From Candidatus Latescibacterota bacterium (GTDB lineage Bacteria > Latescibacterota > UBA2968 > UBA8231): a DNA stretch of 64,000 nucleotides. This document shows, piece after piece, positions 10,666-26,364 of this stretch; positions within the stretch are counted from its first letter, which is position 1; every line of letters starts with the position of its first letter. The notes under the pieces were generated by a model. It searched no databases. It was not told where the DNA came from and saw only the letters and a program-made list of their open reading frames with translations. The position numbers and the translations under genes were made by a program. Location: contig OZ241362.1 in assembly GCA_965200315.1 (NCBI GenBank), forward strand, positions 4,288,001-4,352,000, given 5' to 3'.

Positions 10666-10698
10666 TTCCGTTCACATCTTTCTCTGAGGAGTAATCCC

Positions 10699-11505
10699 AT
10701 GAGCCGCGAGCTTCCCCGGACCATGTTAGGCCGCACCCATCTCGAGGTTACCCGATTTGGCATCGGCGGCACGTATTGCGAGTCGGTCGATGGCTACAAG
10801 GCGGCGCTCGATTGTGGCGTCAACTATGTCGATACGGCCCGCAGCTATCGCGGCGGTGAAGACGAAAAGGTGATCGGCCAAGCGATTGAGGGCCGGCGTC
10901 ACGATCTCATCGTAGCTAGCAAGTCCGTGCGGCGCGACGCCGAAGGGACGCGCCAAGAGCTGCAAACCTCTTTACGCACGCTCAAGACAGACTACCTCGA
11001 CATTTTCCAACTCCACCATTTGAACACCGAAGAAGAACGCAACCAAGCACTCGGCCCTGGCGGAGCATTAGAAGCCGCTCAACAAGCCCGCGAAGAAGGC
11101 TTGGTGCGCTTTATTGGCGTCACCGGACACGATTGGGTGCAAGTTGAACAGGCGGTCCGCACCGGGCATTTTGATACCGTCCTTTGCTGGTACAATTGTG
11201 CGATGAAGGAGCCGGAGGAAACGGTTTTTCCCGCCGCACAGGCCGCCAATACGGGTGTGGTGATCATGAACGCCTCGCGCAACGAGCGGTTGCTAACAGG
11301 CCCCGGCGCGCCCGCTCCTGAACAGTTCTATCGCTACGTGCTCAGTCACGACGCCGTGCATACCACGCTCATGGGTTTGCGGAGTGTCGATCTTTTCGCA
11401 CGAGTGGCCGCTGGCTTGTCGGAGCGCGAGATGATCACGCCACAAGAGCGGGCTGAGCTTGAAGCTTATGGAGCGCAGCAGCGGGCGGCTGGGGAGTTGG
11501 ATTGA
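10699..11505 (+). CDS. Aldo/keto reductase
   Basis: GVNYVDTARSY, SLRTLKTDYLDIFQLH, RFIGVTGH. Confidence 0.9.
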   Translation: MSRELPRTMLGRTHLEVTRFGIGGTYCESVDGYKAALDCGVNYVDTARSYRGGEDEKVIGQAIEGRRHDLIVASKSVRRDAEGTRQELQTSLRTLKTDYLDIFQLHHLNTEEERNQALGPGGALEAAQQAREEGLVRFIGVTGHDWVQVEQAVRTGHFDTVLCWYNCAMKEPEETVFPAAQAANTGVVIMNASRNERLLTGPGAPAPEQFYRYVLSHDAVHTTLMGLRSVDLFARVAAGLSEREMITPQERAELEAYGAQQRAAGELD

Positions 11506-11534
11506 GTGCCGACAGGAGGCTCGCCTGCGTCTTG

Positions 11535-12449
11535 TCAGCTTGTGCCGTCTAGAGGCTGGGCACATCGGAGTGCGGTCTCGGTTATCTCTTGTTTTATCAC
11601 CCGGTCGTCGAAGAAGTACGCCATCCAGTTGACGAATGCGAGCCATAGGTCGTTAGTGGAAAAATCGTCTCCGGAGATTGTCTCAAGATAAGAGTGGGCA
11701 TCGGAGCGGGTGAGTGTCGTGTCTTCGGTCGCGTCGAGAAGGGCTTCAGCGATTGGTATGGCCGCGATCAGGGAACGGACCGCAGTTCGGAATTCATCTT
11801 CCTTGAGACCCGGCTGGAGATTGGAACTCGCCAAGTCAGTCAGCAGAATGCGGTCGGCAGCTTTTACGTATTCGCTCGGGGGTTGTGTGTAGAACTGATA
11901 TGCGTATTCGGGTCGTCGACTGATCGGAAACCAAGGAGCCTCAAAATCAACCGTTGATGCCGTTGAGGTAGAAAGACTGTCAGCCAAGCGACGAGCGGCT
12001 TGCGCCATGAGCCTTGTTGCTGGGCGTTTCGCTTGAGAGATTTCCTTAAGCGTCGCAGCAATTCCAGGATCGTCGATGGTCGTCTCAACGAGAACCTCGA
12101 TATTCCTGCCGCCTCCTTCCCCTAGTCCGGCAAGAGTCACGTTGGCCGAGCCAGCGAGACATCGTTCGCCGGCGATATAGAGCTTAGCATGTAGCCTGTC
12201 AACGAGGGAAATGGTGAAGTTGCCGCGTTTCTCAAGCATGTCCAAGATTTCCGGATCGGATACGCCCGCTGCAACTTCTTGGGGGAGCCATCGCGTGACA
12301 CAATGCAGATGTGCGTCCGTGGGAATTACATCGAGCAATGACCGTAGTGCATCGACCTTAATGAACGGTGCGACGACTGAAACTTCACCTACGACACCCT
12401 CGAAAAGGGCACGAATCCGTCCGCCTTGGGTGTCATTAGCTGCCGCCAT
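11535..12449 (-). CDS. PLD-like (HKD) nuclease domain protein
   Basis: VAPFIK, LHAKLYI...GSANVT...NIE half-PLD motif (canonical Asp position is Gly). Confidence 0.7.
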   Translation of the reverse strand: MAAANDTQGGRIRALFEGVVGEVSVVAPFIKVDALRSLLDVIPTDAHLHCVTRWLPQEVAAGVSDPEILDMLEKRGNFTISLVDRLHAKLYIAGERCLAGSANVTLAGLGEGGGRNIEVLVETTIDDPGIAATLKEISQAKRPATRLMAQAARRLADSLSTSTASTVDFEAPWFPISRRPEYAYQFYTQPPSEYVKAADRILLTDLASSNLQPGLKEDEFRTAVRSLIAAIPIAEALLDATEDTTLTRSDAHSYLETISGDDFSTNDLWLAFVNWMAYFFDDRVIKQEITETALRCAQPLDGTS

Positions 12450-12455
12450 GATTCC

Positions 12456-14393
12456 CTACACCAGATCCGTGGGAGCGATTGAGCCATCGTCTTCATCGAA
12501 GAACTCCTCCGCGTACTTTCCCCATTCCACACGCGCATCGCGGACCTTGCGCCGAGCGAGGTCGGTCTGTTCTTCCTCATAACGAGCCCACGAGTAAATG
12601 AGAATACGGAAGGCCGCGGCGGCTTTCTCAAGACGTTCCCGAACTTCATCTTCGGTCAATTTATCAACATCGGGGTGCATGATGTCGTAAAGGTGTGAGT
12701 ACACGGGATGGTTCGTGTTGAGCGCGACTTGAATTACGTTGGGCAGTGATTCAACATAAAAGAATGCCGCACTTTCTTGCGCCGATTGGATCCAACGCAC
12801 TCGATTCCCCGCCTCGATTGTTTCGGCCACTCGTTGAAGCGCATCGCTCTGATCGAGACGATGCGTCTCGACTAGAGATTCGACTTGCGTCTCCTTGTGT
12901 TCCTCTTCGGTCCCTGATTCACCGGCTCGATCGGACTCTCCTTGATGCCCCTCCACAATACGACGTTTTATTGCGGCCGTTGCCTTTGCATCAGCTTTCT
13001 GGTCTTCGTTGGGAACATGACGCGGACCTCGGGGCTGGATCTTCTCCTTAACGCGAGACCGCATTGCAGTAATAACATTTCTGATCTGTTTGTGAAGTTC
13101 CAAAAGATCTACACGATGATCACCATCCTCCTTCATCCGACGGCGAACATCACCGCTCGACTCTTCACCGGGTAGTGCTTCACGTCTCCAGTCATACTGT
13201 GCAAGCCGCTGGAAAGTCACCGTGCCCTGTTTATTGTTGGTAACGCCGAATACTTCATCGAGTGCCGTCGGAAAGTCGACTTCTACCGTCCACCAACGTT
13301 CGGTCGGATCGTTACCATTTACCCATGATCGGTCGATCTCGATCTCGCGATGCGCTCGTACCAGCGAGACACCCATATTATGATCGGCATGCTTCCCCCA
13401 CGGTGCGTGCCCGGCATCTCTTCCAATAAACTCTTCAGGCCAATTGGCTTCAGGGTCGGAAGAGTCGCGGACATGGGCACGAGCGTAGCTCGCTCGGACG
13501 TAAACCTGATACTGCTGATCTTTATAGCTCACGGGCACTGGGAAAGGGCTTGCATCGAGTTCCTTGAACATTGGACCGACTCCGAATTGTTCAGGGCATG
13601 AAGTACCGGTCATAAGATAGAGGGGATCATTCGGCCTTACTTCGATGATACCATCCTTCTGTACCTCACTCGTACCTTCGTTTTCTTGAATGGGTATACA
13701 TGTGATGGTTCGCCGGGGTCCAATGTCTTCAGTTCTTGGATCATCCGGACACAGTCTCTCCGATGGCTTCGCGAGAAAACGCCGGTATATCCGTCCAAGG
13801 AGGGTCTCGGTGTGCTTGAAAGTCGTCGATGCCTGCTTCCATTCAACTCGGTCGAGCTCGCTCCATACTACTAAAGTGCCGGAATCGCCTAAAGTGCGGC
13901 TCGCCTCGAGGTAAACTTTTGGGATGGGTTGCAACTTGGGTTCACGGATTTCACGGGCACCGCGCTCCACATCGTCGATGGAAAGCTTCGCGTGGAAGGC
14001 ATTCGTGGCTCCTGATTGCCATGACCAGACATCTACCTGTCTTGCCTGCGACATCGATGAATTAGGAAGTCCAAGGCCAAAACGGCCGATTCCCCGTCTC
14101 TGTTGGCGAGTCCCATGACCGTAACGGAGGCTTCCTCGGAGCGTGTTTTGGTCCATGCCCTCGCCGTTGTCGAGGACAGCCAATTCCTTGAGGGTAAATC
14201 TTCCGGTGTGGCTATCTTGCCGACTTACTCCAAATATCTCGATTGTTGTCGCTCCACTCTCTATCGAATTGTCGATAAGCTCTGCAAGCGCATGTGTGGT
14301 GGACTTGTACCCGCTGTCGCGCATTGCCTCGACCGTCATTCTGGTATCAACGATTGAGAACTCCAGTTGTCCATCGAATTCAGTCACTGCCAT
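12456..14393 (-). CDS. MORC-type GHKL ATPase
   Basis: ALAELIDNS (N box), LDNGEGM (G1), GIGRFGLGL (G2), SGTLVVWSELD; GGAGG RBS before ATG 14393. Confidence 0.85.
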   Translation of the reverse strand: MAVTEFDGQLEFSIVDTRMTVEAMRDSGYKSTTHALAELIDNSIESGATTIEIFGVSRQDSHTGRFTLKELAVLDNGEGMDQNTLRGSLRYGHGTRQQRRGIGRFGLGLPNSSMSQARQVDVWSWQSGATNAFHAKLSIDDVERGAREIREPKLQPIPKVYLEASRTLGDSGTLVVWSELDRVEWKQASTTFKHTETLLGRIYRRFLAKPSERLCPDDPRTEDIGPRRTITCIPIQENEGTSEVQKDGIIEVRPNDPLYLMTGTSCPEQFGVGPMFKELDASPFPVPVSYKDQQYQVYVRASYARAHVRDSSDPEANWPEEFIGRDAGHAPWGKHADHNMGVSLVRAHREIEIDRSWVNGNDPTERWWTVEVDFPTALDEVFGVTNNKQGTVTFQRLAQYDWRREALPGEESSGDVRRRMKEDGDHRVDLLELHKQIRNVITAMRSRVKEKIQPRGPRHVPNEDQKADAKATAAIKRRIVEGHQGESDRAGESGTEEEHKETQVESLVETHRLDQSDALQRVAETIEAGNRVRWIQSAQESAAFFYVESLPNVIQVALNTNHPVYSHLYDIMHPDVDKLTEDEVRERLEKAAAAFRILIYSWARYEEEQTDLARRKVRDARVEWGKYAEEFFDEDDGSIAPTDLV

Positions 14394-15997
14394 ACGTCCT
14401 CCCAATTCAGAAATGCTGCCGCGACGTCACCGAATCCCGGCAGGCTTGAATCAACGACGGTTACGATTTCGCAGGCGTCCGTGCCACCTGCCTTTGGACC
14501 GCGGATCGCACGCCCGACCATCTGGCTGTATAGCACTAGGGACTTTGTCGGACGAGCAATGACTACCGCACTTGCCTTGGGTGCATCAAAACCAGTAGTC
14601 AACACACCGAAATTGACGAGGACCATCGGGATCTCGTCATCCGACTTGAAGGTACGGATGGCGTGGTCCCTCTCGCGCCCCGGCGTCAAACCGGTCACCG
14701 CCTTGCTTCGGATGTCGCGAGCGACGAGAATCGCCGTCAGGACTCGCGCATGTGCGACTGTGGCGGCGAAGACGAGCACACGCTGATGACCTGCGCCAAG
14801 CAGTTCCTCAATCGCGCCAAGTACTGCCGTCACATACTGTTCACTCATCGACAAGGTGGATACGATCTCTTCAGGGATGTCCAAAGCCCCTGAGATGCGA
14901 TTCAACTCGCTATCATTGATACTGAGGCCCGGTTTGGAAAAAAGCGTTTGGAAGGTAGGTCGGGCAAGAAAGCCGTTGTCTGTGAGATACTCAATCGGGT
15001 TATCACCGGGGACCTCGAGTGTGATCTTGTTTCTGGAAAAGAAGTCGGCGAGCTCACCGTCTTTGTCAATATCATCCCATGTTCGCCCTGGTGTGGCAGT
15101 AAGTCCCAAAAGGGCGCATCGGAAATCGAGGGTGAGATCGTTTGTGATCTGCCTGTAGGTTCTAGCAATGCTCTGGTGAGCTTCATCAAAGACCACTAGC
15201 CGGACCCGTGGGGAGAGTCGCACCGCCCAATCCGGGTCAGTTCGTGAGATTACAGACCAGCCTTTTGCCAGCCCGACGGCGAGGAATCCGTCGGAGAAGC
15301 TATCGAGTTCCGGCATTCTGTTGCCCCACATGGTTCCAATCTGTAGCGGTCTTGTGCCTAGATGTTTCCAAGCCTCCTTAAACGCCACCACCGCTTGCTC
15401 AAGCAGTTCTTTTCCTGATGCAAGCCAGACAACGACCGAGGGCTCATGGGTACGTAACGAATCCGCCACCACGTGCATAGCCGTGCGAGTTTTGCCCACC
15501 CCAGTAGGTAAGTGAAGAACCGCTCGGCGTTCATCGCAGGACAATAACGGTGTCAACTTCCGAACAGCCTTCCTCTGATGCTCGAACAAGCTGTATGCAG
15601 GGGTGATCGTAGCCGTTGGTGGCCCCGCCGGTGGCACGATCCGTTCTTCTACTAGGCCGAAGAAATCACGCAGCAGTCGCACTTCCGCCTCGGTCCAATC
15701 GCCTGCGTCAGTGGGGTGAATGCTTCGCCCGACGCGGCTTTCCAACTCGGGTCGCTTCTGTTCGGGGACCAAGCTCAGGACAAGCCTCCGTCCCTTCGCC
15801 TCTCCGATCAATATGTCGAAATCGACAAGTGTTCGAGCGACCCGCCGCAGATCGTCACCGGCAATGCTTCCACCAAAGATCGCATCCAGGACCGAAAGGA
15901 CATTGGAGTCTAAGAACCGCCGGATGTCCTGATCCGACAGCAATTCTAGGAATCGAGCGAAAGTCAAACCGGGGCCATCAAACATCGTTGATCTCAA
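14384..15997 (-). CDS. SF2 DEAH-box helicase/translocase (ResIII-like)
   Basis: LPTGVGKT, FDEAH, LTATPGR, LTTGFDAP, QMVGRAIRG. Confidence 0.9.
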   Translation of the reverse strand: MRSTMFDGPGLTFARFLELLSDQDIRRFLDSNVLSVLDAIFGGSIAGDDLRRVARTLVDFDILIGEAKGRRLVLSLVPEQKRPELESRVGRSIHPTDAGDWTEAEVRLLRDFFGLVEERIVPPAGPPTATITPAYSLFEHQRKAVRKLTPLLSCDERRAVLHLPTGVGKTRTAMHVVADSLRTHEPSVVVWLASGKELLEQAVVAFKEAWKHLGTRPLQIGTMWGNRMPELDSFSDGFLAVGLAKGWSVISRTDPDWAVRLSPRVRLVVFDEAHQSIARTYRQITNDLTLDFRCALLGLTATPGRTWDDIDKDGELADFFSRNKITLEVPGDNPIEYLTDNGFLARPTFQTLFSKPGLSINDSELNRISGALDIPEEIVSTLSMSEQYVTAVLGAIEELLGAGHQRVLVFAATVAHARVLTAILVARDIRSKAVTGLTPGRERDHAIRTFKSDDEIPMVLVNFGVLTTGFDAPKASAVVIARPTKSLVLYSQMVGRAIRGPKAGGTDACEIVTVVDSSLPGFGDVAAAFLNWEDVWQ

Positions 15998-17307
15998 GGA
16001 TGATCATCATCCGACATGGGTTGAGTACTTGAATCCGCAAAGTAGTGGGGAAGACTGACATTCTGGAGTTCCCGATTCAGTAGTCCTGCTAGTTCTTTTC
16101 TTACATTTTTTCTGGATGTCTTGAATGGAGCCCGAGTTAGATCGCCTCCGAGTGCGTTGAAAAGTAATTGGCGAGCAACTTTCTGATTCTCCTTTGTCGT
16201 CAACATACGTTTGTTCGTATTATCCCAAAGCAACCCCATCCAAGGGGCCTCAGCAAGGTTGGTCGGAGTATGTCCAACCGCCTCGATCGCCTCCGCGAGA
16301 CTCATGTCCGCACTTGAACGCAAATCGGCGACGACGCGTCCAATTAACATCAGTCCGACAGGTCGAAACAGCAAATTTCCACCATTAGAACTCCTGTACT
16401 CACCAGCAACGTTGTCTGCCGGAGAACTGTCAAGAAGTTCCTTGAGCGGAATAAAATTGTTGCATAGAGCGTCCCAAAACTTGCTTGCCGTTTGATAAAA
16501 TATCTCGACCTTTGACTCCGGCGGTCGCCAACGTTTATAGTCTCTCCAGCCTCGCTGACCGTTGCTTAGCACTATGTCCACGACGTCATACACTGTGACG
16601 ATAGTCGTCAGATTCGTCCGATCAGTGGGACTTATAGATTTTGACATGCCCATATCCACTTTGTCCACGAGGAGAGGGTGTTCTTCCAATAGCCTTCGCG
16701 TAATGATTGCGATGATGTCGTCTTCATCAAGTGCAATAATGTCACGTTTACGAACGGGTTTAGCGTAGCGATTTAGGGTCGAAAAAAGACGCCTCGTGCG
16801 CTGAAAACCATCTGGATCATGGCCGCGCCTACTTGCGATAACTCCTTGGATGAAGATCGTACATACTTTTTCATTCTTTAGAGCATTGTTCTTACCGATA
16901 GCCCCCATGATGCCTTTCACACGATGTTGTCCATCAATTGCGAACAGAGTCTCATCGCCGCTAAGTTCTAGGAGACCTATAGTCCCTTCAATTTTCTCCG
17001 GTACCGCGGCAAAATTTCGCCCCTTCACGGATATCTCGTGCCAATTAGGATGACCTCCATAGGTTCCGACCACAATCGCGTTGAATAGTCTCTGTTCTTG
17101 GCCAAGTAAGTAATTAGTGATTTTCACGGAATTGTCTGTGAGGCCCCTCTGCAACCACTCCTTCAAAGATTCGCTTGAATGGATATCGTCAACAACGCTA
17201 ACACGAGTTGCAATATCCTCCATGCTCATGAAGGATATATAATACACCCAATCGCCCATTGTTGCCCGAAGGGCGGGTAGGAAAAGTCGCTCATGAATAT
17301 CAACCAT
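15994..17307 (-). CDS. DGQHR (ParB-like, DndB-family) domain protein
   Basis: WLQR, LFAIDGQHR, RRLFSTLNRYAKPV. Confidence 0.85.
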   Translation of the reverse strand: MVDIHERLFLPALRATMGDWVYYISFMSMEDIATRVSVVDDIHSSESLKEWLQRGLTDNSVKITNYLLGQEQRLFNAIVVGTYGGHPNWHEISVKGRNFAAVPEKIEGTIGLLELSGDETLFAIDGQHRVKGIMGAIGKNNALKNEKVCTIFIQGVIASRRGHDPDGFQRTRRLFSTLNRYAKPVRKRDIIALDEDDIIAIITRRLLEEHPLLVDKVDMGMSKSISPTDRTNLTTIVTVYDVVDIVLSNGQRGWRDYKRWRPPESKVEIFYQTASKFWDALCNNFIPLKELLDSSPADNVAGEYRSSNGGNLLFRPVGLMLIGRVVADLRSSADMSLAEAIEAVGHTPTNLAEAPWMGLLWDNTNKRMLTTKENQKVARQLLFNALGGDLTRAPFKTSRKNVRKELAGLLNRELQNVSLPHYFADSSTQPMSDDDHP

Positions 17308-17771
17308 CAGAACGCTCCTTGTGCACGTTGCACTTCTCCGGTGAATCTTGTATTACAAGGAGGAACGAAAGCATTGATCAATTCCTCCTCTATATTGTCA
17401 AGTATTTCTTTATCGACCTTAGAATAAAAAAACATTATGAAGCCACCATACATTTCGAGGAGCCGTACGACTTTGGGACGTCTGACCCGTTCTCTGGTCA
17501 AATAGTCACCAAAGCGCTTATGGAGGTTCTTCGCTTGGCCGACGTACATGAGATAAGAGCAACCTAAGTGCCCCGCAATCCTAGGTTGGATCACTAAGGA
17601 ATAAACTCCGGTAGTATGAGGCACCTTGGACTTGCTATTGTCATTTAGTACGACGTTGTGCCATTTTAAGCGTACGTTACAAGTTTTCCATTGTTTTGGC
17701 CAAAGGCAAATAGACCAAATGTGCTTTTTGTATTCGTCCTGAGATGCTACAATATCCGCAGGTGAGGCCAT
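17307..17771 (-). CDS. GIY-YIG nuclease family protein
   Basis: GVYSL...YVGQAKNLHKRFGDY...IEEELI...PPCN; visibly AT-rich. Confidence 0.8.
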   Translation of the reverse strand: MASPADIVASQDEYKKHIWSICLWPKQWKTCNVRLKWHNVVLNDNSKSKVPHTTGVYSLVIQPRIAGHLGCSYLMYVGQAKNLHKRFGDYLTRERVRRPKVVRLLEMYGGFIMFFYSKVDKEILDNIEEELINAFVPPCNTRFTGEVQRAQGAF

Positions 17772-17834
17772 TAAGTCTTTTCCGGCGTTGAACTTATCAA
17801 TCTCTGGCGGTTCATTTCCTCGGGTCTTCCCGCA

Positions 17835-18683
17835 CTACAGAGCACACACCGTGCAGGGCGTGGTGTCGTCATCCTCGTCGAGGGCTTCGGAGAGTGCTTC
17901 GATCAGCGGGATGTTTGCCCGGGTCTTACTGGCGCGGGACACCGCTGCCTCGTGGCGTTTGAGAATCTCGTCTCGGCGGGACCGAAGCTCTGGGAGGGTT
18001 TCCCTTCCTGACCATGTGTACTGGCGACCACGCATAGCTTGATTTCCGAAATCGGCGTCACCGTCAATGCCAGCGTCCTGCAGCACCTTCCTTTCAATGG
18101 CGACCGCTCGCTCGAATAACTCAGGGTGGCGTTCGGCCAACCCGATCCATTCCGCCTTGCGTTGATAGAAGCAGAAGTAGCAGCCTGACCTTGTTCTCCA
18201 CTCATAGTACGCTGGGAGGCCTACGCCGGCATCCGCGAGAATCCTCATCACGCCATCGTGGTCAATTCCATCTTCGATGAACGGAAATCGGGTTTGGATA
18301 TTAGGCTTGGTGGAGATGTATCCCTTGCGGTTCGACTCATCAGCGCGAATCGCAACGTAGGAAAGTGCCGGAGCGTCACCGATCCATTCCTCGATCGGCT
18401 TAATCTTCATGTTCTTGGTGCACCATCGCATCTGAGGAGAGGGCAGCGTCCCACGGAACACCTCAAACCAGTGGTCAAAGCCACGTTGAGCGTTGAGACG
18501 GGCAATCGACTTGCCGAGGATCACTTCAAGACGGGTGAGGTACTCATAGGTTTCGGGAAGCTCGGCACCGGTGTCGCAGAAAAAGTACTCCATCTCGGGC
18601 ACCTTGTCCCGAAGGTAGATGGCGAGTGCACTGGAGTCTTTGCCGCCTGAGATGCCGCAGATGTGGCGGATGATTTCAGCCAT
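17835..18683 (-). CDS. sspD: PAPS-reductase-family ATP pyrophosphatase, SspD-like
   Basis: SGGKDS PP-loop, RWCT, RSGCYFC, C-terminal CTVC; directly follows the DUF4007 and ATPase genes. Confidence 0.78.
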   Translation of the reverse strand: MAEIIRHICGISGGKDSSALAIYLRDKVPEMEYFFCDTGAELPETYEYLTRLEVILGKSIARLNAQRGFDHWFEVFRGTLPSPQMRWCTKNMKIKPIEEWIGDAPALSYVAIRADESNRKGYISTKPNIQTRFPFIEDGIDHDGVMRILADAGVGLPAYYEWRTRSGCYFCFYQRKAEWIGLAERHPELFERAVAIERKVLQDAGIDGDADFGNQAMRGRQYTWSGRETLPELRSRRDEILKRHEAAVSRASKTRANIPLIEALSEALDEDDDTTPCTVCAL

Positions 18684-21600
18684 GCTGTGCTTTCCTTTCG
18701 ATTAAATTGACTCCCTCTCTATCGTCGCTACCGGTCAGTTCGGACAGCAGCCGTTCGCTGAGAAGGGCAAGCAATGCCTTATGAGCGCGATGCGGTGAGC
18801 CAATGCTCTGGGTCAGTTCTTTAAGGACGCTATCGAGGGCTTCGTCGGCATATTGGCGTTGATTCTGGTCAATATCGACCAAGCCGACATGTTCGTAGCC
18901 GTCTGGGCGGGTGATAGTCACGCGGAACGCGTTGAACGGGCCACCGCCATCAGCCCGGTGGTCCGCGTGGAGGGCGACGAGGCGCTGAAACGCGGCAATC
19001 TGCTGCGGAAGCTCATGGCGGAATCGTAGCAGATCGTCGTCTGTCCACTCCGCCGGTGCCTTCTTGGCCACCACTGTGGCGATGGCCTCGATCCAGTCAG
19101 TGTCGGTATCCACGCCGTTGTTGGCCAAGGTGAGGACGAACGCCCGAACCGTAGGATTAAGGACTTCGTTCTCAAGGGCAGCAGCTTGGCCAGTGATTGC
19201 TAGGCGATTAGTCTCTGCACTTGTCTCAAGGAGAAAGTCGAAGAGATCGTTGAGGAGTTGATCGTAACATCCGGCGAGTTCGTTTAGTACAGCACCGATT
19301 TTCCCTGCGTAAGCGTCGGCCTTCTCATAGGTTTTCTTGTCGGCAGGGATGGGCTGAAATCCGAGGGCCTTCGGCAGGCTATCGAAGAGCAGTTCGTCTG
19401 GTTCTACCGCAGCTATAAGGGTATCCCGCGCTTTCAGCGTGGTGGACGTGAGGTTGCTGGTAAGTAGAGTATAGTTGTCGAGAGTCCTCATCTGAGAAAC
19501 TAGATGACCGACAATGGATAGGACATTTGTGACCCGGTGCTTGCGGAACCCCGGCCTCACTCCGAGGTGTGCGGCAATAGCATCGATGACTTGCCGACGG
19601 GCACCAGTGGTGTTGGCGAAGTGCTTGATGTCGAAGTGACTAGGGTTGCGAACCATTCGTTCCGACAAGTCGGGAGTAAGAAGCGGCTTGAAGGTACCGT
19701 GCTCATAAATGGCAATCTCGTCTCTGAAAGCAAGCAGTGCCGCCGTGCCAAATACCGGGATGACTGCGGCCTTCATTCCGACCGGAGGTGAGAGCAGTGC
19801 GGCATAGACATCGCGGAGGTTGATGCGGCGGATTTTGGCTCGTTTGAATTCGTCGTTGAGGATTTCCCAAGCCGGCTGTAGAGAGTGATCGGTAGGCCTG
19901 CGAAAAACCATGGTGTCGTTTCGGACATCGCGGGCGTGGAGCCCGGTCCGTTCCAAGAACGCCCGATACATGGCCACTTCCGGCCCATAGCCATCAAACC
20001 CGAGTCCCGGACTGGTACCACGCTCGATCATGGCCTCGAGCAAGAGACGCCGGGCTTTGGAACCTTGGGTGGTGGGATTGGTACGGTTGAGCATTTCATT
20101 GCAAATCGTCGGCGTGGATGGGTACGCAAGATCGGCCGCCGCTGACAGCGCGGTGCTACCCCGACCGGTGGGCAGTGGGGTTTCACCGGAGGCGTCGAGC
20201 AAGATCCATCGACATGAGTCAGTGCTGAACGTGGTGCTAATGGCGTGTTCAAGTGCGACTCGCGCCTGCGCTAGCCGCTCTCCCAACTCACGGCGGGCTA
20301 CCCAATCAGTTTCGACGACCGGATGCTCCAGAACGGCGGTGACGGCCGCAACTTCCCGAGCGGCCCGGTCGAGTTCGGTCACTTCGTTCGGAATTGCGGC
20401 CACAACCGGTTTGACTGTAGCCGCTGACTGAACCAAGCTCGGTACTGTCCGGTCTGAGCTGATAACGAGCAGAACCTCGCCATCATACGGGGAGAATGCG
20501 TCGAGTGGTTCGACATGCTCACTACCGCCGGCATAGCGCCTAGCAAATACTCGGAGTACGTCGTGTTCTGCACTGTGTCGCGCCGCTACTACGGGTGGAG
20601 GCTGCTCCATGGCCGCTAGGATCTCGACGAGTGGTTGCCTTTGCCCTCGTTCATGGGCCGCGTCAAGGAGATGGCGGATGTCGACATCGGTTCCTTGCCA
20701 GACCCGGTACTCGTCGGCAAAGTCCCGATAGGTGATAACACCGGCTTTCTCAAGGTCAACCAGATCGTCATTCACGTCAGGATCGATGAGGGCGAGTATT
20801 TGACGCGATGCTCGAATCGTTCCAGTCGTCGCCACTAGATTGAGTAGGGCGATGGACTTGACTAGTCGCACCTGTCGTTTTGAGAGACCGTGAATGTCGC
20901 GGATTCGGGTGGCGATCTCAGTCCATCGACTCGACTGGCCGGCAGATAGGACTGCTAATGCACCTCTATCGACAAAATAGTCGAAGATAGCCTCAAGGCC
21001 CAAAGAAGGAAGGGAGCCGCGGCCCGGTAGCTTAGTGGTTGCAAGGAAGGACGCTGCGCTCGCCGGATCAGAGCTAGTTAGGAATGAGAACAACGTCCGT
21101 TCGTGCTGTCCATACCGGTTGCATAGCTCGGGTAATACCATCGCAGCTATGGGGTGCAGTGGGTAGCAAGCAGTTATGACCTCTGGGTCTGCAAGGTCCA
21201 CGATACCAAGTGAACGCATCGTCTTGGCGTGGCCTTGAGCCCAATGAGCAATCCGGTCCCGCAGTTTATCGTCGCCAACCTCAAACACAGTCCCAATTAG
21301 GGATCGTGCTTGGTTGGCCGATTCGACATAAGAGATGTTCTCAAAGCGGCCTTGCACCTTGGCCCATTCACGGTGCTGCGGACCGTCGGTCCCTGTTAGA
21401 TAGTCCTCAAATGACAGATGCTGCAAAGTCAGCATGAAGATGGGTAATCCTGAGCCTTGGCCCGCCTCCGCGATCTGTTGTAACAGATAGGGATCGGCGT
21501 CGTTGCCACCCCGGATCGCTTCGAGGTTCTTGCCAAACTCATCAATGACTAGTAGCAGCGGCGCATCCTCTGCCAAGCACCGAGCGATCTCGACTATCGC

Positions 21601-22149
21601 AGCCGGGGACGGCCCGGTGCGGCGGGGATCATCTGTCGCTGCATCTTCAAGAGCCCCTCTCAGTGTCTTGGCCGCTTGGAACCTGCTGGTGGGAGGAATT
21701 TTGCCGTAGCTACGGAGTACAGCCGCGTGGAGTGCCCGGAGTACGGTGTGGCTGAGTGGTTCACGGTTCGCGGTAACTAGACCACGATAGAATCCCATGT
21801 CTTGGGTCTGGTGGCGTTGGTGAGTCTGTCGGACCAACGCGCCCACCGTCGAAGAAACCTCGTCAATAAGATCCCAAGCGACCGCTCGTGTCGGCGTGGC
21901 TGGACCTAGGGCGGCGTCGAGCAACAAAGCGAGCGACGATTTACCCGAGCCGTAGGGTCCAATCAGTGACCATGCTCCTCCTGATGGTCCCGTCACAGCA
22001 GTCGCGGTTATGCGCTCCACCACATCAAGAGTGCGCATCGTAACGATGTATCCGTTGAGCGGCTCGAATCGATTGACGTCACGTTCGAGGTTTGCTGAGC
22101 GAGCGAAGCGGCCGCGGACGGAGAAATAGTCTGCAAGGACGGCCATCAC
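18676..22149 (-). CDS. sspC: Large P-loop ATPase, SspC-like
   Basis: RFARSANLERD, GPYGSGKSS Walker A, VIDEFGK Walker B, EWAKVQGRF, YPLHP, QHERTLFSFL. Confidence 0.78.
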   Translation of the reverse strand: MMAVLADYFSVRGRFARSANLERDVNRFEPLNGYIVTMRTLDVVERITATAVTGPSGGAWSLIGPYGSGKSSLALLLDAALGPATPTRAVAWDLIDEVSSTVGALVRQTHQRHQTQDMGFYRGLVTANREPLSHTVLRALHAAVLRSYGKIPPTSRFQAAKTLRGALEDAATDDPRRTGPSPAAIVEIARCLAEDAPLLLVIDEFGKNLEAIRGGNDADPYLLQQIAEAGQGSGLPIFMLTLQHLSFEDYLTGTDGPQHREWAKVQGRFENISYVESANQARSLIGTVFEVGDDKLRDRIAHWAQGHAKTMRSLGIVDLADPEVITACYPLHPIAAMVLPELCNRYGQHERTLFSFLTSSDPASAASFLATTKLPGRGSLPSLGLEAIFDYFVDRGALAVLSAGQSSRWTEIATRIRDIHGLSKRQVRLVKSIALLNLVATTGTIRASRQILALIDPDVNDDLVDLEKAGVITYRDFADEYRVWQGTDVDIRHLLDAAHERGQRQPLVEILAAMEQPPPVVAARHSAEHDVLRVFARRYAGGSEHVEPLDAFSPYDGEVLLVISSDRTVPSLVQSAATVKPVVAAIPNEVTELDRAAREVAAVTAVLEHPVVETDWVARRELGERLAQARVALEHAISTTFSTDSCRWILLDASGETPLPTGRGSTALSAAADLAYPSTPTICNEMLNRTNPTTQGSKARRLLLEAMIERGTSPGLGFDGYGPEVAMYRAFLERTGLHARDVRNDTMVFRRPTDHSLQPAWEILNDEFKRAKIRRINLRDVYAALLSPPVGMKAAVIPVFGTAALLAFRDEIAIYEHGTFKPLLTPDLSERMVRNPSHFDIKHFANTTGARRQVIDAIAAHLGVRPGFRKHRVTNVLSIVGHLVSQMRTLDNYTLLTSNLTSTTLKARDTLIAAVEPDELLFDSLPKALGFQPIPADKKTYEKADAYAGKIGAVLNELAGCYDQLLNDLFDFLLETSAETNRLAITGQAAALENEVLNPTVRAFVLTLANNGVDTDTDWIEAIATVVAKKAPAEWTDDDLLRFRHELPQQIAAFQRLVALHADHRADGGGPFNAFRVTITRPDGYEHVGLVDIDQNQRQYADEALDSVLKELTQSIGSPHRAHKALLALLSERLLSELTGSDDREGVNLIERKAQHG

Positions 22150-23141
22150 TGACTCCCCACCAACGGTGCTGCTGTCGGCCTTTTACTCTTATGATCGACT
22201 CGAATGTCGGATGTCGGAAATCCGTAGTAATGGTTGAGGACTTCGGTGGCGACCTCGCTGGGATCTCTTGACCATGAAAGCTGGGATGCTCCTGTAGTGC
22301 TAACTAGCCTGAGCGCGTCTGTTTCATCAATGGTCGGTTCGATGGCTGCGAGAATTTCACCTTCGGTAAGTTTGAAAGCCTTTCCGGGGGCACCTAACTC
22401 ATAAGCAAGGCGACTGAGCATGATCGTGTTCCCCCCGGTGTTGGTACGGGTGATATAGTCTAATACAGAGTAGGTCAATATGGCCGATGGCAGAGTAGGC
22501 TTCGCCCCCAGTGTGAACCGGTATTGACCCGCTGCGGACGAGCGTCCAATCAGATTCAGTTCCCGGAGAGGACAATCCAAGAGGTCGTCAATCCCACTAC
22601 TCCCCGACCTTTCCGCCGGTGCATAGGTGCGCAACAGAACGCTGATGTCCTTCCTGACGGAGGACGGATGAGGCTTAGGCCACTCGGCAATGGCTTCGAG
22701 TTGCGTGGTGATCACCATCTCGAGGTCGTCGTCAGTGAACTCAACGGCGTGAAATTCGTTGAAGGCGAGCCACCACACCGGCAGCCGGGAGGGAGGCGCC
22801 AACAACAACCAATGCAGCAGCCATAGAGTCCCCGGGTCCTCCATATACCGATCCCATCCAGAGTCTCCGAAGAGGGTCTCGCCCAAGATAGTCGGGACCA
22901 GATCGGGAGTCCGGCGGTTGGGAAACTGTGGATCCACTTCGATCAGCTTGGACGCGAGTCCCCAAAAGCGAATCGCTCGGACCATATTCTTGCCAACCCC
23001 AATCTGTACCGGGGCGTCCTCTTGGATGAAGATGCGAGGGGCTTCGGCTACGAAGGTATATGCCTTCCGAAACCATCCGTATCGGGGGTGGAACGTCTCA
23101 TGCCGAGCAAAGATCGGCTCGGCCGCTTCGACTATGCGCAT
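22146..23141 (-). CDS. sspB: DUF4007 family protein, SspB-like
   Basis: FARHETFHPRYGWFRKA, GVGKNMVRAIRFW, DRYMEDPGTLWLLHW, CPLRELNLI. Confidence 0.82.
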   Translation of the reverse strand: MRIVEAAEPIFARHETFHPRYGWFRKAYTFVAEAPRIFIQEDAPVQIGVGKNMVRAIRFWGLASKLIEVDPQFPNRRTPDLVPTILGETLFGDSGWDRYMEDPGTLWLLHWLLLAPPSRLPVWWLAFNEFHAVEFTDDDLEMVITTQLEAIAEWPKPHPSSVRKDISVLLRTYAPAERSGSSGIDDLLDCPLRELNLIGRSSAAGQYRFTLGAKPTLPSAILTYSVLDYITRTNTGGNTIMLSRLAYELGAPGKAFKLTEGEILAAIEPTIDETDALRLVSTTGASQLSWSRDPSEVATEVLNHYYGFPTSDIRVDHKSKRPTAAPLVGSQ

Positions 23142-24308
23142 CTATACCCCTTCCTTTTCCTTGGTCATAGCTCGAACGTACTCAACGGCTGCTATAGTTC
23201 TCTCTACAGCGAGCTCAATGTCCTCCTGTGTGGTGAAACGGCCCAAGCTGAACCTAATCGACTCGAACGCTGCATCACGTGGGATACCCATGGCGAGGAG
23301 AACCTCAGAGGGTTCGATCGAGCCGAAGTTGCAAGCGCTACCCATCGACACCGCAACAGGGTCCATGTTGGTTATGACCGCCTCCGCATCGGCACTCTCG
23401 AAGCGAACATTGGCCGTATTCGGGAGTCTTCGGGTGGTGTCTCCGATGTCGTAAACGCCGGAGAGTCCCGATTTCAAGGCAGAGATCAGGTGCTCGCGGA
23501 GCGTCGCGACCCGTGCTGACTCAAGGATGCGTTCCTTAGTAGCGATGTCGGCGGCAGCCCCGAACCCGAGGATGCCAGCGACATTCAACGAACCCGACCG
23601 CAGCCCTCGTTCGTGCCCGCCGCCGTGGATGATCGGGCGCAATCGTTTCAGGCTATGGCGGGTTCCGACGAGAGCCCCGACACCGGTCGGGCCACAGATC
23701 TTGTGGCTACTTATCGACACGAAATCGGCCCCAACCTGATCGATGTCGAATAGCAGCCGGCCCACCAACTGCGTGGCGTCACAGTGGAACAATGCGCCGG
23801 CTGCATGCACCTGCTCGGAAATCTCCTCTAACGGGTTCAGCACACCGGTCTCGCTGTTTGCCGCCATTACTGACACTAGCAGCATGTCAGTGCCGACAAG
23901 AGCTTCCATTGCATGAGGATCGACGAATCCTCCGTTAGTCACGGGTATAATATCCAGATTTGCCAATTTCTGATCTCTGAGCCACCGTGCGGTCTGACAG
24001 ACTGAAGCATGCTCGACTGCGGAGATCGCGATTCTCGACCGGTCGGTTGGCGCGTCTTCCACCGCCCCTCGTAGTGCCAGATTGTTAGCTTCGGTTGCAC
24101 CCGACGTGAACACCACATTCGATGGGTGGCCGCCGACCATGGCCGCGATGTGCTCACGTGCTTCATCAACTGCGGCGGCTTGGCGGCGGCCAAAGCGGTG
24201 CATAGAGGCTGCATTCCCGACTCTCTCAGTAAGGGCTGGTACCATGACCTCAGCGACACGAGGGTCAAGTGGGGTTGAGCCGTTGTAGTCGAGGTAAACC
24301 TCTCTCAC
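23142..24308 (-). CDS. sspA: IscS-like cysteine desulfurase, SspA/DndA role
   Basis: YLDYNGSTP, FTSGATEANN, HCDATQ, SSHKICGP (PLP Lys), GSAC (catalytic Cys); AAGGAAGG RBS before GTG 24308. Confidence 0.85.
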   Translation of the reverse strand: MREVYLDYNGSTPLDPRVAEVMVPALTERVGNAASMHRFGRRQAAAVDEAREHIAAMVGGHPSNVVFTSGATEANNLALRGAVEDAPTDRSRIAISAVEHASVCQTARWLRDQKLANLDIIPVTNGGFVDPHAMEALVGTDMLLVSVMAANSETGVLNPLEEISEQVHAAGALFHCDATQLVGRLLFDIDQVGADFVSISSHKICGPTGVGALVGTRHSLKRLRPIIHGGGHERGLRSGSLNVAGILGFGAAADIATKERILESARVATLREHLISALKSGLSGVYDIGDTTRRLPNTANVRFESADAEAVITNMDPVAVSMGSACNFGSIEPSEVLLAMGIPRDAAFESIRFSLGRFTTQEDIELAVERTIAAVEYVRAMTKEKEGV

Positions 24309-24462
24309 GACGCCTTCCTTTCCGTTTTGTGCTTGGAACGCGAGCCAACTCCCCTTGGCTACCGCCAAAGTATCAAGACCCAGCTTTATAATGTAAAGCT
24401 AATATACAGACTACTGATAATGCGCCGCCCTATCTCCGACGGTGCATTTCGAGCCAAAGGGT

Positions 24463-24785
24463 CATGGCTAGCGGCTAAAGGCGACCACACATAGCGGTTG
24501 AGTACCCGGTGATAGGTCTGAAAGGTCGGCTGCTGACTCAAGCCCAACACCGCCAACACCGCACGGACCGTGCGTTTACCCGGTTCTAACAGGGGCCCAA
24601 CCAACAGTAGCTGATCCTGTGGCCAAACGCGGCGAGAAAAAACAGGGGCAAACGGCGACAAAATCTTTATTATCTTGTTGGGCAGAGGGCGCATCGGTTC
24701 CTTCTAGGCGGTCGATGCTTGGATACCATCAACAGTACGGACCATACCGGCCTCCTGCTACATCTTTGGATAAAGTCGGGCTCAG
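24463..24785 (-). mobile_element. Truncated IS remnant (IS701-like DDE transposase N-terminus plus left end)
   Basis: FAPVFSRRVW...PGKRTV...FQTYHRVLNRYVWS, truncated after about 77 aa; putative terminal sequence CTGAGCCCGACTTTATCCAA (minus strand) upstream. Confidence 0.65.
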
Positions 24786-24808: not shown

Positions 24809-24827
24809 TTTAGGACGCAGCAGCCGA

Positions 24828-26363: not shown

Positions 26364-26364
26364 T

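What the first reader, a model, noticed from the sequence alone, without database searches (positions are those of the whole stretch)
11535..24308. Candidate new phosphorothioate defence system: SspABCD coupled to GIY-YIG, DGQHR, SF2 helicase, MORC ATPase and PLD nuclease
Seen: nine co-oriented genes with abutting or overlapping junctions (TAG-ATG at 23142/23141, TGATG at 22146, 8-nt overlap at 18676-18683, TGATG at 17307, overlaps at 15994 and 14384-14393, 6-nt gap at 12450-12455). All look intact, unlike many decayed accessory genes nearby. Established: cysteine desulfurase + DUF4007 + ATPase + PAPS-reductase-like protein is the SspABCD single-strand PT module, whose characterised partners are SspE or SspFGH. 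I recognise neither, nor DndFGH or BREX PglZ/BrxL. Inference: the five downstream genes are an alternative PT-sensing effector, with a MORC clamp and SF2 translocase delivering PLD/GIY-YIG nucleases to unmodified DNA and the DGQHR protein as regulator or nucleotide sensor. Novelty must be checked against published PT-locus surveys.
Basis: partly seen in the sequence, partly recalled or inferred. Interest (0 to 1): 0.9.

Follow-up and report, generated by a model that had tools for sequence, protein, structure and literature searches.

The report
Sulfur-DNA defence with MORC nuclease module
A gene cluster that marks the cell's own DNA with sulfur is joined here, as in many unrelated microbes, to an undescribed three-protein DNA-cutting module that probably attacks invading DNA.

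Summary
Nine intact, co-oriented minus-strand genes lie at 11535-24368 with abutting or overlapping junctions.

- **Modification module:** four genes are full-length SspA, SspB, SspC and SspD by PADLOC models.
- **No known effector:** none of the five downstream genes matches an SspE, SspF, SspG or SspH model. PbeA is matched only weakly, over the helicase core.
- **Core effector candidate:** an SF2 helicase, a MORC-like GHKL ATPase and a single-HKD PLD nuclease form a conserved trio.
  - All 29 related loci with 8 kb or more on both sides carry at least two of SspB, SspC and SspD.
  - The linkage survives at least 11 rearrangements on the MORC tree and pairing with divergent Ssp lineages.
  - The unit shared between phyla runs exactly from sspA to the PLD gene.
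- **Accessory cassette:** the GIY-YIG and DGQHR genes are optional. They fill a swappable slot that elsewhere is empty or holds a DUF262 protein with a partner. The slot is polymorphic in the community that holds this DNA.
- **Exceptions:** one orphan trio, and a sister clade paired only with a distant SspD-like gene.

No paper in the held library links MORC to Ssp. This scan met the same trio before on other DNA (e1-1115387, e1-1213914). PT dependence and defence are untested. I rate it a new variant of a known kind.

The parts
23142..24368 (-). sspA, cysteine desulfurase (sulfur donor). The likely true start is the GTG at 24308.
   Evidence: PADLOC SspA 3.2e-127 and Pfam Aminotran_5 4e-72. 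Homologues align from residue 20-25. The RBS and GTG were read.
22146..23141 (-). sspB, a DUF4007 protein that recognises and nicks DNA in the modification module
   Evidence: Pfam DUF4007 4.3e-86 and PADLOC SspB 1.8e-104, both full length.
18676..22149 (-). sspC, a BrxC-like ATPase of 1157 aa
   Evidence: PADLOC SspC model PDLC02781, E = 0, 1024.7 bits, profile positions 2-1104 of 1104. BrxC scores weaker, 1.6e-93.
17835..18683 (-). sspD, a PAPS-reductase-family PP-loop ATP pyrophosphatase carrying SGGKDS
   Evidence: PADLOC SspD 2.2e-109 and Pfam PAPS_reduct 4.6e-10. SGGKDS is at residues 12-17 and conserved in 23 sequences.
17307..17771 (-). g5, a small GIY-YIG-fold nuclease of 154 aa. It is the first gene of the optional cassette.
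   Evidence: - Pfam GIY_YIG_2 scores 21.5 bits, below the 22.4 cut-off.
- Y57, Y76, R86 and E128 are invariant in 40 sequences.
- The AF2 model has pLDDT 73.9.
- The best Foldseek matches are the UvrC GIY-YIG domain (E 1.3e-3, TM 0.71 by target length), T4 EndoII and Eco29kI.
- The family is small, with 54 clusters found.
15994..17307 (-). g6, a DGQHR-domain (ParB/Srx-superfamily, DndB-like) protein of 437 aa. It is the second gene of the optional cassette.
   Evidence: - NCBIfam TIGR03187 DGQHR scores 101.9 bits against a cut-off of 58.85.
- The DndB equivalog TIGR03233 scores only 52.4 against 328.
- Pfam DndB 2.1e-26.
- The DGQHR motif is at residues 125-129 and invariant in 6 sequences.
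- GC drops to 0.48 over 16001-18000.
14384..15997 (-). SF2 (RadD/Rad25-like) DEAH helicase of 537 aa, with an N-terminal extension of about 128 aa. Core trio.
   Evidence: - Pfam ResIII 1.3e-18 and Helicase_C 1.2e-14.
- PDB best matches are RadD 2.6e-24, SauUSI 5e-9 and Rad25.
- GVGKT, DEAH, TATPGR and QMVGRAIRG are conserved in 27 sequences.
- The N-terminal part is absent from the lone-SspD cassette form, which aligns from residue 130.
12456..14405 (-). MORC-like GHKL ATPase of 649 aa (645 aa from the ATG at 14393). Core trio.
   Evidence: - Pfam HATPase_c_3 8e-21.
- The only PDB sequence matches are human MORC2, E 1.2e-6, over the GHKL part.
- ELIDNS, DNGEGMD and GRFGLGLP are invariant in 25 sequences.
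- There are 499 representatives at E <= 1e-30 in the 50%-identity library.
11535..12449 (-). Single-HKD PLD-superfamily nuclease of 304 aa: a PLD domain at about 1-160 and an unassigned helical domain at about 180-280. Core trio.
   Evidence: - No Pfam hit. PADLOC ZacB 8e-10 and DrmC 5.7e-6.
- L86, H87, A88, K89, G100, S101 and N103 are invariant in 23 sequences.
- The AF2 model has pLDDT 81.6.
- The best structural match is the SauUSI nuclease domain: Z 12.8, rmsd 2.9 over 138 residues.
- BfiI follows at Z 11.0 and Nuc at Z 10.3.

Best explanation
The locus is a phosphorothioate (PT) restriction-modification-type defence operon. It has three layers.

**1. Modification (established for the family, inferred here).** SspA takes sulfur from cysteine. 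SspD activates with ATP. SspB and SspC choose and nick the site, which gives single-strand PT marks on the host DNA.

**2. Core effector (inferred).** The helicase, the MORC-like GHKL ATPase and the PLD nuclease act together as an ATP-driven restriction machine.
- The helicase translocates on DNA.
- The MORC protein closes as an ATP-dependent dimeric clamp.
- The nuclease has only one HKD motif and needs two copies to build one active site. I propose that clamp closure brings two nuclease copies together, so that cutting depends on ATP and on DNA engagement.
- Host PT marks are the self signal. Most likely they block loading or translocation, so that unmarked DNA is cut, as with DndFGH and SspFGH.

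**3. Plug-in slot between sspD and the helicase (inferred).** Here it holds a GIY-YIG nuclease plus a DGQHR (ParB-fold) protein. In relatives it holds a DUF262 (ParB-fold) protein plus an unknown partner, or nothing. I read these pairs as split analogues of SspE (ParB-fold NTPase sensor plus nuclease) that add a second arm. A DndB-like regulator of PT level is the alternative reading.

**What is shown and what is not.** Shown: gene content, intact catalytic motifs, folds, and conserved linkage. Not shown: the PT marks, any binding, the direction of discrimination, or any defence.
For: **Module identities**
- SspA-D are full length by PADLOC.
- Catalytic motifs are intact and conserved in helicase, MORC, PLD, SspD, g5 and g6.
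- The PLD domain is closest in structure to the nuclease domain of the helicase-coupled restriction enzyme SauUSI (Z 12.8). The helicase also matches SauUSI by sequence (5e-9).

**Linkage**
- Genome loci with both flanks of 8 kb or more: 18 of 18 have at least two of SspB/C/D next to the MORC gene.
- Metagenome loci down to about 30% MORC identity, same flank rule: 11 of 11.
- Loci with one long flank: 5 of 6 and 17 of 20.
- Six genome loci pair a trio of 51-78% identity with Ssp proteins of only 22-49% identity. Three have the ssp genes inverted.
- On the MORC tree the Ssp arrangement changes at least 11 times, yet the linkage stays.
- Nucleotide homology to 13 loci starts and stops at 11534-11565 and 24296-24429.
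- In 14 of 27 genome loci the helicase gene follows sspD within 30-314 nt.
- In the window's phylum, DUF4007 is in 45 of 168 genomes, and 10 of 26 MORC-family places lie within about 13 kb of it.
- A cultured strain has the same order on an annotated plasmid, Trichormus variabilis ATCC 29413 plasmid A.

**No other effector**
- No SspE, SspF, SspG or SspH model hits in the operon.
- No true SspE or SspH in the genome.

**Slot**
- GIY-YIG plus DGQHR, or DUF262 plus a 229-239 aa protein, or empty.
- Contigs of a community run show a second form that replaces 15895-17841 with 1142 other letters.

**From papers**
- 2,211 of 2,678 sspBCD loci lack sspE and sspFGH (PMC8092258, passages read).
- Prokaryotic MORCs with Rad25-like helicases and HKD or REase nucleases were predicted to be restriction systems (PMC2292703, section 4 read).
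Against: - No experiment of any kind exists. PT marks, nuclease activity and phage defence are all untested here.
- The trio family is not strictly tied to SspBC.
  - One intact orphan trio sits between housekeeping genes and an IS (L144). That genome does have two SspB loci elsewhere.
  - 12 places in 11 genomes of the same phylum hold a four-gene cassette: a 289-aa distant SspD-like protein (25% identity, no SGGKDS), a shorter helicase, MORC and PLD, without SspA, B or C.
  - 7 of those genomes have no DUF4007 at all.
- In some loci the trio, or the MORC gene alone, sits beside a known effector. SspE lies directly upstream of MORC in L089 and L091. SspH or SspFGH lies beside the trio in L059 and an Agrobacterium plasmid. 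It may therefore be an add-on rather than the cognate restriction partner.
- Nothing shows which protein reads PT.
- The loci were found through the MORC gene, and many are near-copies spread by gene transfer. The raw counts overstate independence.
- The Ssp, helicase and PLD calls in the loci rest on HMMs that I built from the window and its relatives. Only a few were checked against PADLOC.
Confidence: 0.6

Rival explanations
1. The trio is PT-activated rather than PT-blocked. Like SspE, it needs PT marks on host DNA to switch on its NTPase and nicking activity, and then damages phage DNA. It would be harmless without the modification genes.
For: - SspE works this way in the same Ssp family (PMC8092258 and PMC9646914, abstracts and passages).
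- Strict co-location with ssp genes fits this as well as it fits the main reading.
- SspE itself lies directly upstream of a MORC relative in L089 and L091.
Against: - The trio has no ParB-fold (DUF262) domain, which is the PT-sensing part of SspE.
- Helicase-coupled PLD nucleases such as SauUSI, and the predicted PbeA, cut DNA after translocation.
- The lone cassettes without SspB and SspC would have no activator.
Confidence: 0.15
2. The trio is a self-standing MORC-type restriction or abortive system. It lies beside ssp genes only because defence genes cluster and travel together. It neither reads nor needs PT.
For: - The orphan trio L144, and the clade of 12 cassettes without SspA/B/C.
- MORC-helicase-nuclease operons exist with methylases or alone (PMC2292703).
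- Several other defence-type genes lie in this island.
Against: - 29 of 29 loci with both flanks long carry Ssp genes.
- Linkage survives at least 11 rearrangements and a swap of Ssp lineage.
- The shared unit ends exactly at sspA and the PLD gene.
- The helicase start lies within 30 nt of the sspD stop in many loci.
- Even the lone cassettes keep an SspD-family gene first.
Confidence: 0.12
3. The trio serves the modification side. It would remodel or nick DNA so that SspBCD can write or maintain PT marks, or remove misplaced marks. It would not attack invaders.
For: - The lone cassettes pair the trio with nothing but an SspD-like PP-loop enzyme. There, helicase and MORC could stand in for SspB and SspC.
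- SspB itself is a nickase (PMC8092258).
Against: - IscS-SspBCD alone writes PT in E. coli without any such genes (PMC8092258, passages).
- Most sspBCD loci lack the trio: in the window's phylum only 10 to 12 of 45 genomes with DUF4007 have it nearby.
- The PLD domain is nearest to restriction nucleases.
Confidence: 0.08

Closest known systems
SspABCD-SspE (Xiong et al. 2020, not held: recalled; described in PMC8092258 and PMC9646914)
   Same: The same four modification genes. The effector is encoded directly downstream. The optional g6 protein shares the ParB/Srx fold class with the N-terminal sensor of SspE. PMC10853773 calls SspE the equivalent of DndB.
   Different: No DUF262-DUF1524 protein in the operon or the genome. 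The core effector is three separate proteins: helicase, GHKL ATPase and PLD nuclease.
SspABCD-SspFGH (PMC8092258)
   Same: A three-gene effector next to sspBCD that includes a DNA-motor protein. SspFGH is said to damage non-PT DNA and to be toxic without modification, which is the behaviour I predict here.
   Different: No sequence match to SspF, G or H models. The motor and the nuclease differ. In L059 and an Agrobacterium plasmid both modules sit side by side, so they are not variants of each other.
PbeA of PbeABCD, and TIGR04095 'DNA phosphorothioation system restriction enzyme' (HKD nuclease fused to an SF2 helicase; PMC10853773)
   Same: An HKD nuclease working with an SF2 helicase beside PT-modification genes. 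There are weak helicase-core matches: PbeA 1.7e-19 and TIGR04095 6.6e-10.
   Different: Nuclease and helicase are separate genes with a MORC ATPase between them. There is no PbeB, no PbeC (CxC ABC ATPase) and no PbeD (DndE). The partner is Ssp, not Dnd.
Prokaryotic MORC restriction-modification operons (Iyer, Abhiman and Aravind 2008, PMC2292703)
   Same: A MORC-type GHKL ATPase beside a Rad25-like SF2 helicase and an HKD nuclease. The family is spread by lateral transfer. This is the same architectural class.
   Different: That paper links the class to DNA methylases. PAPS, Dnd and desulfurase are absent from its text, and 'sulfur' occurs only inside the genus name Sulfurovum. Here the modification partner is the Ssp sulfur machinery.
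SauUSI (PDB 7clg), an ATP-dependent type IV restriction enzyme
   Same: It holds the best structural match of the PLD domain (Z 12.8) and a helicase sequence match (5e-9). It couples a PLD nuclease to an SF2 motor.
   Different: SauUSI is one polypeptide with a target-recognition domain and attacks modified DNA. Here there are three polypeptides and a GHKL clamp.
DndB (DGQHR family regulator of Dnd systems)
   Same: g6 carries the DGQHR domain above the NCBIfam cut-off, and Pfam DndB.
   Different: It scores 52 bits against the DndB equivalog cut-off of 328. It is paired with a GIY-YIG nuclease. It sits in an Ssp locus, not a Dnd locus.

Membership tests
SspABCD PT-modification module | Four genes together: cysteine desulfurase SspA, DUF4007 SspB, BrxC-like ATPase SspC, PAPS-reductase-like SspD | tested here: met
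   Full-length PADLOC matches at 3.2e-127, 1.8e-104, E = 0 and 2.2e-109. The genes are adjacent and co-oriented.
SspABCD PT-modification module | SspD PP-loop motif SGGKDS | tested here: met
   Residues 12-17, conserved across 23 sequences.
SspABCD PT-modification module | Single-strand PT marks in genomic DNA | not testable with these tools
   Needs LC-MS/MS or iodine-cleavage sequencing.
SspE effector | DUF262 (GmrSD_N) plus DUF1524 (GmrSD_C) protein of about 700-800 aa matching SspE models | tested here: not met
   No SspE hit among the nine proteins or the flanks. In the whole genome the best hit is 31.9 bits in a 581-aa frame, and the model also rings in 5 of 14 control genomes.
SspFGH effector | Matches to SspF, SspG and SspH, including the FtsK-like SspH of about 1800 aa | tested here: not met
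   No hits in the operon. The genome-wide SspH model matches only the FtsK-like C-terminus of a 781-aa frame at 2.44 Mb, and rings in 8 of 14 controls. SspF and SspG were not searched genome-wide.
PbeABCD | PbeA as an HKD-SF2 fusion, plus PbeB, a CxC ABC ATPase PbeC and a DndE-like PbeD | tested here: not met
   Only the helicase core matches PbeA (67.9 bits, profile 248-435 of 672). The nuclease is a separate gene. No PbeB, C or D hit.
BREX type 4 | PglZ and BrxL together with BrxP and BrxC | tested here: not met
   BrxC and BrxP models score far below the SspC and SspD models. No PglZ or BrxL hit among the nine proteins or the flanks.
Prokaryotic MORC (Iyer 2008) | GHKL ATPase with the four nucleotide-binding motifs | tested here: met
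   HATPase_c_3 8e-21. E42, D45, N46, D79, G83, G107, G110 and G112 are invariant in 57 diverse relatives. The only PDB sequence matches are MORC2.
Prokaryotic MORC (Iyer 2008) | S5-fold domain with the GhXhhpXXRhl motif that separates MORC from paraMORC | tested here: inconclusive
   GVSLVRAHREI at residues 345-355 resembles the motif. G345, S347, R350, R353 and E354 are invariant. I neither modelled the fold nor made a comparison with paraMORC families.
Prokaryotic MORC (Iyer 2008) | Neighbouring SF2 helicase and nuclease | tested here: met
   My HMMs found a helicase in 26 of 27 genome loci and 66 of 80 metagenome loci, and a PLD in 27 of 27 and 51 of 80. Most misses are on short contigs.
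PLD/HKD nuclease superfamily | PLD fold with HxK and GSxN | tested here: met
   H87, K89, G100, S101 and N103 are invariant. Fold matches: SauUSI Z 12.8, BfiI Z 11.0, Nuc Z 10.3. The classical D of HKD is a G here.
GIY-YIG (URI) nuclease | GIY...YIG motifs, catalytic Arg and Glu, and the fold | tested here: met
   GVY57, YVG76-78, R86 and E128 are invariant in 40 sequences. The top fold matches are UvrC GIY-YIG domains (E 1.3e-3, TM 0.71 by target), EndoII and Eco29kI. Pfam is just below its cut-off. The model is of medium confidence (pLDDT 73.9).
DndB | NCBIfam equivalog TIGR03233 at or above 328 bits | tested here: not met
   52.4 bits. Only the broader DGQHR domain model passes (101.9 against 58.85).

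The most novel reading that the evidence does not exclude
Helicase-MORC-PLD is an unnamed, widespread third class of effector for Ssp phosphorothioate systems. It would be the missing partner of many 'orphan' sspBCD loci.

In it a MORC clamp gates a half-site HKD nuclease: ATP-driven dimerisation assembles the active site on unmarked DNA.

The slot next to it takes interchangeable pairs of a ParB-fold sensor and a nuclease, which are SspE taken apart.

The sister clade with only an SspD-like enzyme would then mean that a PP-loop enzyme plus this trio is a minimal self-marking immune system.
Probability: 0.35. Interest if true: 0.85.

Novelty: new variant of a known kind. Interest (0 to 1): 0.72.

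Why it matters
**Orphan sspBCD loci.** Only two effector types are described for Ssp systems, SspE and SspFGH. The paper that defined SspFGH found that 2,211 of 2,678 sspBCD loci have neither, and asked whether other partners exist (PMC8092258). The trio found here is a concrete candidate for some of them. It has about 500 family representatives at the 50%-identity level and occurs in at least nine phyla.

**Prokaryotic MORC function.** The trio would give a testable role to prokaryotic MORC ATPases, the relatives of eukaryotic chromatin-silencing MORCs. Their function in bacteria has rested on gene neighbourhoods since 2008.

**A place to test it.** The same gene order sits on a plasmid of a cultured cyanobacterium, so the experiments can be done.

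**A question about the mark.** The sister cassette with a lone SspD-like enzyme raises the question of how little machinery is needed to mark DNA.

Tried and rejected
- **Complex prediction of MORC (A3) with PLD (A1):** no answer (score 0.00). This says nothing either way.
- **Expression:** contigs of three RNA-library runs (X5-X7) cover all of 9000-27000 evenly. The flanks are covered too, so DNA carry-over cannot be excluded and no transcript, start or end can be read. I make no claim of transcription.
- **Protein Atlas:** for the 239-aa partner of the DUF262 protein (L002) it returned only unnamed clusters.
- **Protein Atlas:** for the helicase N-terminal 130 residues the best score was 0.77, below the useful range. 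That domain stays unassigned.
- **Promoter and terminator scan:** no more sites than in shuffles.
- **C-terminal helical domain of the PLD protein (about 180-280):** it drew no structural match of its own. I did not model it alone, so I cannot say the fold is new.
- **HEPN motif in g6:** I looked for one by eye and saw none. This was not a test.
- **Xiong et al. 2020:** not held. What I say of it is recalled or taken from later papers.
- **Considered and rejected:**
  - BREX type 4, because there is no PglZ or BrxL.
  - DISARM, because DrmC matches only as a generic PLD.
  - Mza, because MzaB matches only the GHKL domain, 67 bits against a cut-off of 850.

Full report
**Observation**

The window holds nine co-oriented minus-strand ORFs between 11535 and 24368. 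I read each junction directly.
- sspA/sspB abut (TAG followed by ATG).
- sspB/sspC, sspC/sspD, g5/g6, g6/helicase and helicase/MORC overlap by 1 to 10 nt.
- MORC/PLD are 6 nt apart.
- Only sspD/g5 has a real gap, of 63 nt.

The island has a lower GC content (0.48-0.58) than its flanks (0.60-0.62), with the minimum over g5-g6.

**Gene identities**

PADLOC models give full-length matches to SspA (3.2e-127), SspB (1.8e-104), SspC (E = 0) and SspD (2.2e-109). The five downstream genes match no SspE, SspF, SspG or SspH model and no Dnd restriction or PglZ/BrxL model. PbeA matches only over the generic helicase core.

| Gene | Main evidence |
|---|---|
| g6 | DGQHR-domain protein (101.9 bits against a cut-off of 58.85), but not a DndB equivalog (52 against 328) |
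| Helicase | ResIII plus Helicase_C; nearest to RadD, SauUSI and Rad25 |
| GHKL protein | HATPase_c_3 domain; its only PDB sequence matches are human MORC2 |
| Last gene | No Pfam hit, but an invariant HxK...GSxN motif; model (pLDDT 81.6) best matches the SauUSI nuclease domain (Z 12.8, rmsd 2.9, 138 residues), then BfiI and Nuc |
| g5 | Below Pfam's GIY-YIG cut-off, but invariant Tyr, Tyr, Arg and Glu; model (pLDDT 73.9) has top matches to UvrC GIY-YIG domains, T4 EndoII and Eco29kI |

All catalytic motifs of helicase, MORC, PLD and SspD are conserved across 23-27 homologues. The genome has no true SspE or SspH elsewhere.

**Recurrence in public genomes**

The MORC protein has more than 120 clusters at 75-94% identity. 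It has 499 representatives at E <= 1e-30 in the library clustered at 50% identity.

Twenty-seven genome loci from MAGs of at least nine phyla carry a relative at 68-84% identity. In all of them the helicase, MORC and PLD genes stay together. The exception is L027, whose contig begins inside the MORC gene.

I searched all ORFs of these loci, and of 80 metagenome loci reaching down to about 30% identity, with HMMs that I built myself.

| Flank condition | Genome loci with Ssp genes | Metagenome loci with Ssp genes |
|---|---|---|
| Both flanks 8 kb or more (at least 2 of SspB/C/D) | 18 of 18 | 11 of 11 |
| One long flank (at least 1 of SspB/C/D) | 5 of 6 | 17 of 20 |
| Any flank length (at least 1 of SspB/C/D) | 24 of 27 | 51 of 80 |

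Most of the remaining loci are on short contigs.

**Why the linkage is not one inherited block**
- Six genome loci combine a trio of 51-78% identity with Ssp proteins of only 22-49% identity. In three of them the ssp genes are inverted.
- A tree of 105 MORC proteins needs at least 11 changes of Ssp position or orientation (FastTree, with some long branches).
- Nucleotide homology between the window and 13 loci begins and ends at the PLD stop and the sspA start. Only one locus, L002, also shares a flank.

**Survey of the window's own phylum**

DUF4007 occurs in 45 of 168 genomes. The MORC family occurs at 26 places in 24 genomes.

| Context of the MORC-family place | Places |
|---|---|
| Within about 13 kb of SspB | 10 |
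| On a short contig, so context unknown | 3 |
| Intact orphan trio between housekeeping genes and an IS (L144), in a genome with two SspB loci elsewhere | 1 |
| Four-gene cassette without SspA, B or C | 12 |

The four-gene cassette consists of:
- a 289-aa distant SspD-like protein (25% identity, PADLOC SspD 2e-13, no SGGKDS);
- a helicase that lacks the first 128 or so residues;
- MORC;
- PLD.

Seven of the cassette-bearing genomes have no DUF4007 at all. This cassette forms one clade on the tree. The trio family is therefore always next to an SspD-family gene or, once, alone. The window belongs to the large branch that is tied to full SspBCD.

**Variants**

| Locus | What is there |
|---|---|
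| L047, L059, Agrobacterium plasmid | A different 360-376-aa endonuclease replaces PLD |
| L059, Agrobacterium plasmid | SspH or SspFGH lies beside the trio |
| L089, L091 | SspE lies directly upstream of the MORC gene |
| L107, L095, L063 | HNH proteins, and no helicase |
| Trichormus variabilis ATCC 29413 plasmid A | DUF4007, SspC, PAPS reductase, two small genes, a 768-aa 'DndB', helicase, MORC, PLD, cysteine desulfurase |

**The slot between sspD and the helicase**

| Slot content | Loci |
|---|---|
| Helicase follows sspD within 30-314 nt | 14 of 27 genome loci |
| GIY-YIG plus DGQHR | the window, L003, L015; L001 holds the DGQHR gene but its contig starts there |
| GIY-YIG plus DGQHR, downstream of PLD instead | L018, L025 |
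| GIY-YIG plus DGQHR in distant relatives | L064, L081 |
| DUF262 (GmrSD_N) protein plus an unknown 229-239-aa protein | L002, L005, L010, L012 |

DGQHR, DUF262 and the sensor domain of SspE all belong to the ParB/Srx class. PMC10853773 calls SspE the equivalent of DndB.

Contigs of one DNA run and two RNA-library runs show a second form in which 15895-17841 is replaced by 1142 other letters. In the DNA run its depth is 59, against 89 for the window's form. The slot is therefore polymorphic within one community.

**Mechanism**

What is shown is gene content, intact motifs, folds and linkage. The rest is inference from established families.
- SspABCD writes single-strand PT.
- The trio resembles the helicase-coupled PLD restriction enzymes SauUSI and PbeA, taken apart with a MORC clamp inserted.
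- A single-HKD nuclease must dimerise, and GHKL ATPases dimerise on ATP. I therefore propose that clamp closure assembles the nuclease.
- The direction of PT discrimination is open.
- The helicase N-terminal domain, which is present only in the SspBC-linked branch, is my candidate for the link to the modification module or to PT.

**Literature**

Eight full-text searches, and passages of PMC10853773, PMC12839542, PMC12914056, PMC8092258, PMC3632139 and PMC2292703, gave no paper that links MORC, GHKL or HATPase_c_3 to Ssp. They also gave no Ssp effector name beyond SspE and SspFGH. Subscription papers and supplements were not seen. In particular I did not open Table S2 of PMC8092258 or the supplementary neighbourhood data of PMC10853773, and those may list such loci.

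Two earlier notes of this scan describe the same trio on other DNA.

**Verdict**

This is a real and recurrent gene system: an SspABCD module with a new, conserved three-gene effector candidate and a swappable accessory slot. I rate it a new variant of a known kind. Its function is untested.

Noticed in passing
window 15895-17841: Contigs of runs X3 (DNA, depth 59 against 89 for the window form), X5 and X7 join 15895 to 17841 with 1142 other letters between. A co-existing strain carries a different insert in place of the GIY-YIG plus DGQHR cassette. The swapped stretch includes the first 100 or so nt of the helicase gene. The tool did not show the other sequence.
   Followed up: partly
L145-L156 (G134, G145, G085, G084 twice, G138, G140, G082, G051, G088, G133, G089): A four-gene cassette of a distant SspD-like PP-loop protein (289 aa, no SGGKDS), a short helicase, MORC and PLD, set among housekeeping genes without SspA, B or C. 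Seven of these genomes have no DUF4007. It forms one clade on the MORC tree. It may be a minimal marking-plus-cutting system.
   Followed up: partly
L144 (G134:C1:3812000-3831999): An intact helicase-MORC-PLD trio with no ssp gene within 7-8 kb. Dehydrogenase genes lie on one side and an rve-type IS on the other. The genome has two SspB loci elsewhere.
   Followed up: partly
L089 2560-9043; L091 1-6160; L090: SspE lies directly upstream of a MORC relative. It is followed by a 166-aa protein and a methyltransferase-HNH fusion (mad2-like), with no helicase or PLD. This is another MORC-containing Ssp variant.
   Followed up: partly
L059 2975-12933; L158 (Agrobacterium tumefaciens plasmid NZ_CP039925.1): A helicase-MORC module with a different 360-376-aa endonuclease lies next to SspH/SspFGH-like genes and ssp modification genes. 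Two effector modules share one PT locus.
   Followed up: partly
window 24828-28847 (-): A DUF445 protein (511 aa) and an HTH-dynamin-like protein (731 aa; weak PADLOC LeoBC hit, 6.2e-9) lie in a stretch of GC 0.46 just beyond sspA. This may be a separate defence-type pair in the same island.
   Followed up: no
window 24386-24694 (-): A 102-aa fragment with weak DDE_5 transposase similarity lies directly upstream of sspA. It is a likely remnant of the element that brought or moved the operon.
   Followed up: no
window 36494-38116 (+): A 540-aa N6_N4_Mtase DNA methylase lies about 12 kb from the operon.
   Followed up: no
genome-wide, window's phylum: DUF4007 (SspB) is found in 45 of 168 genomes of the window's phylum, against 3.0% of genomes with sspBCD in a general collection (PMC12914056). 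The window's MORC sits in a tight clade (99*) of 27 rows whose record titles name nine phyla. That points to recent transfer between phyla. The DNA run that holds the stretch is labelled sponge metagenome in the run listing.
   Followed up: partly
L157 (Trichormus variabilis ATCC 29413 plasmid A, NC_007410.1 323000-340500): A cultured strain carries the same order of ssp genes, a ParB-class gene, helicase, MORC, PLD and desulfurase. A 'DNA phosphorothioation-associated putative methyltransferase' lies divergently upstream.
   Followed up: partly
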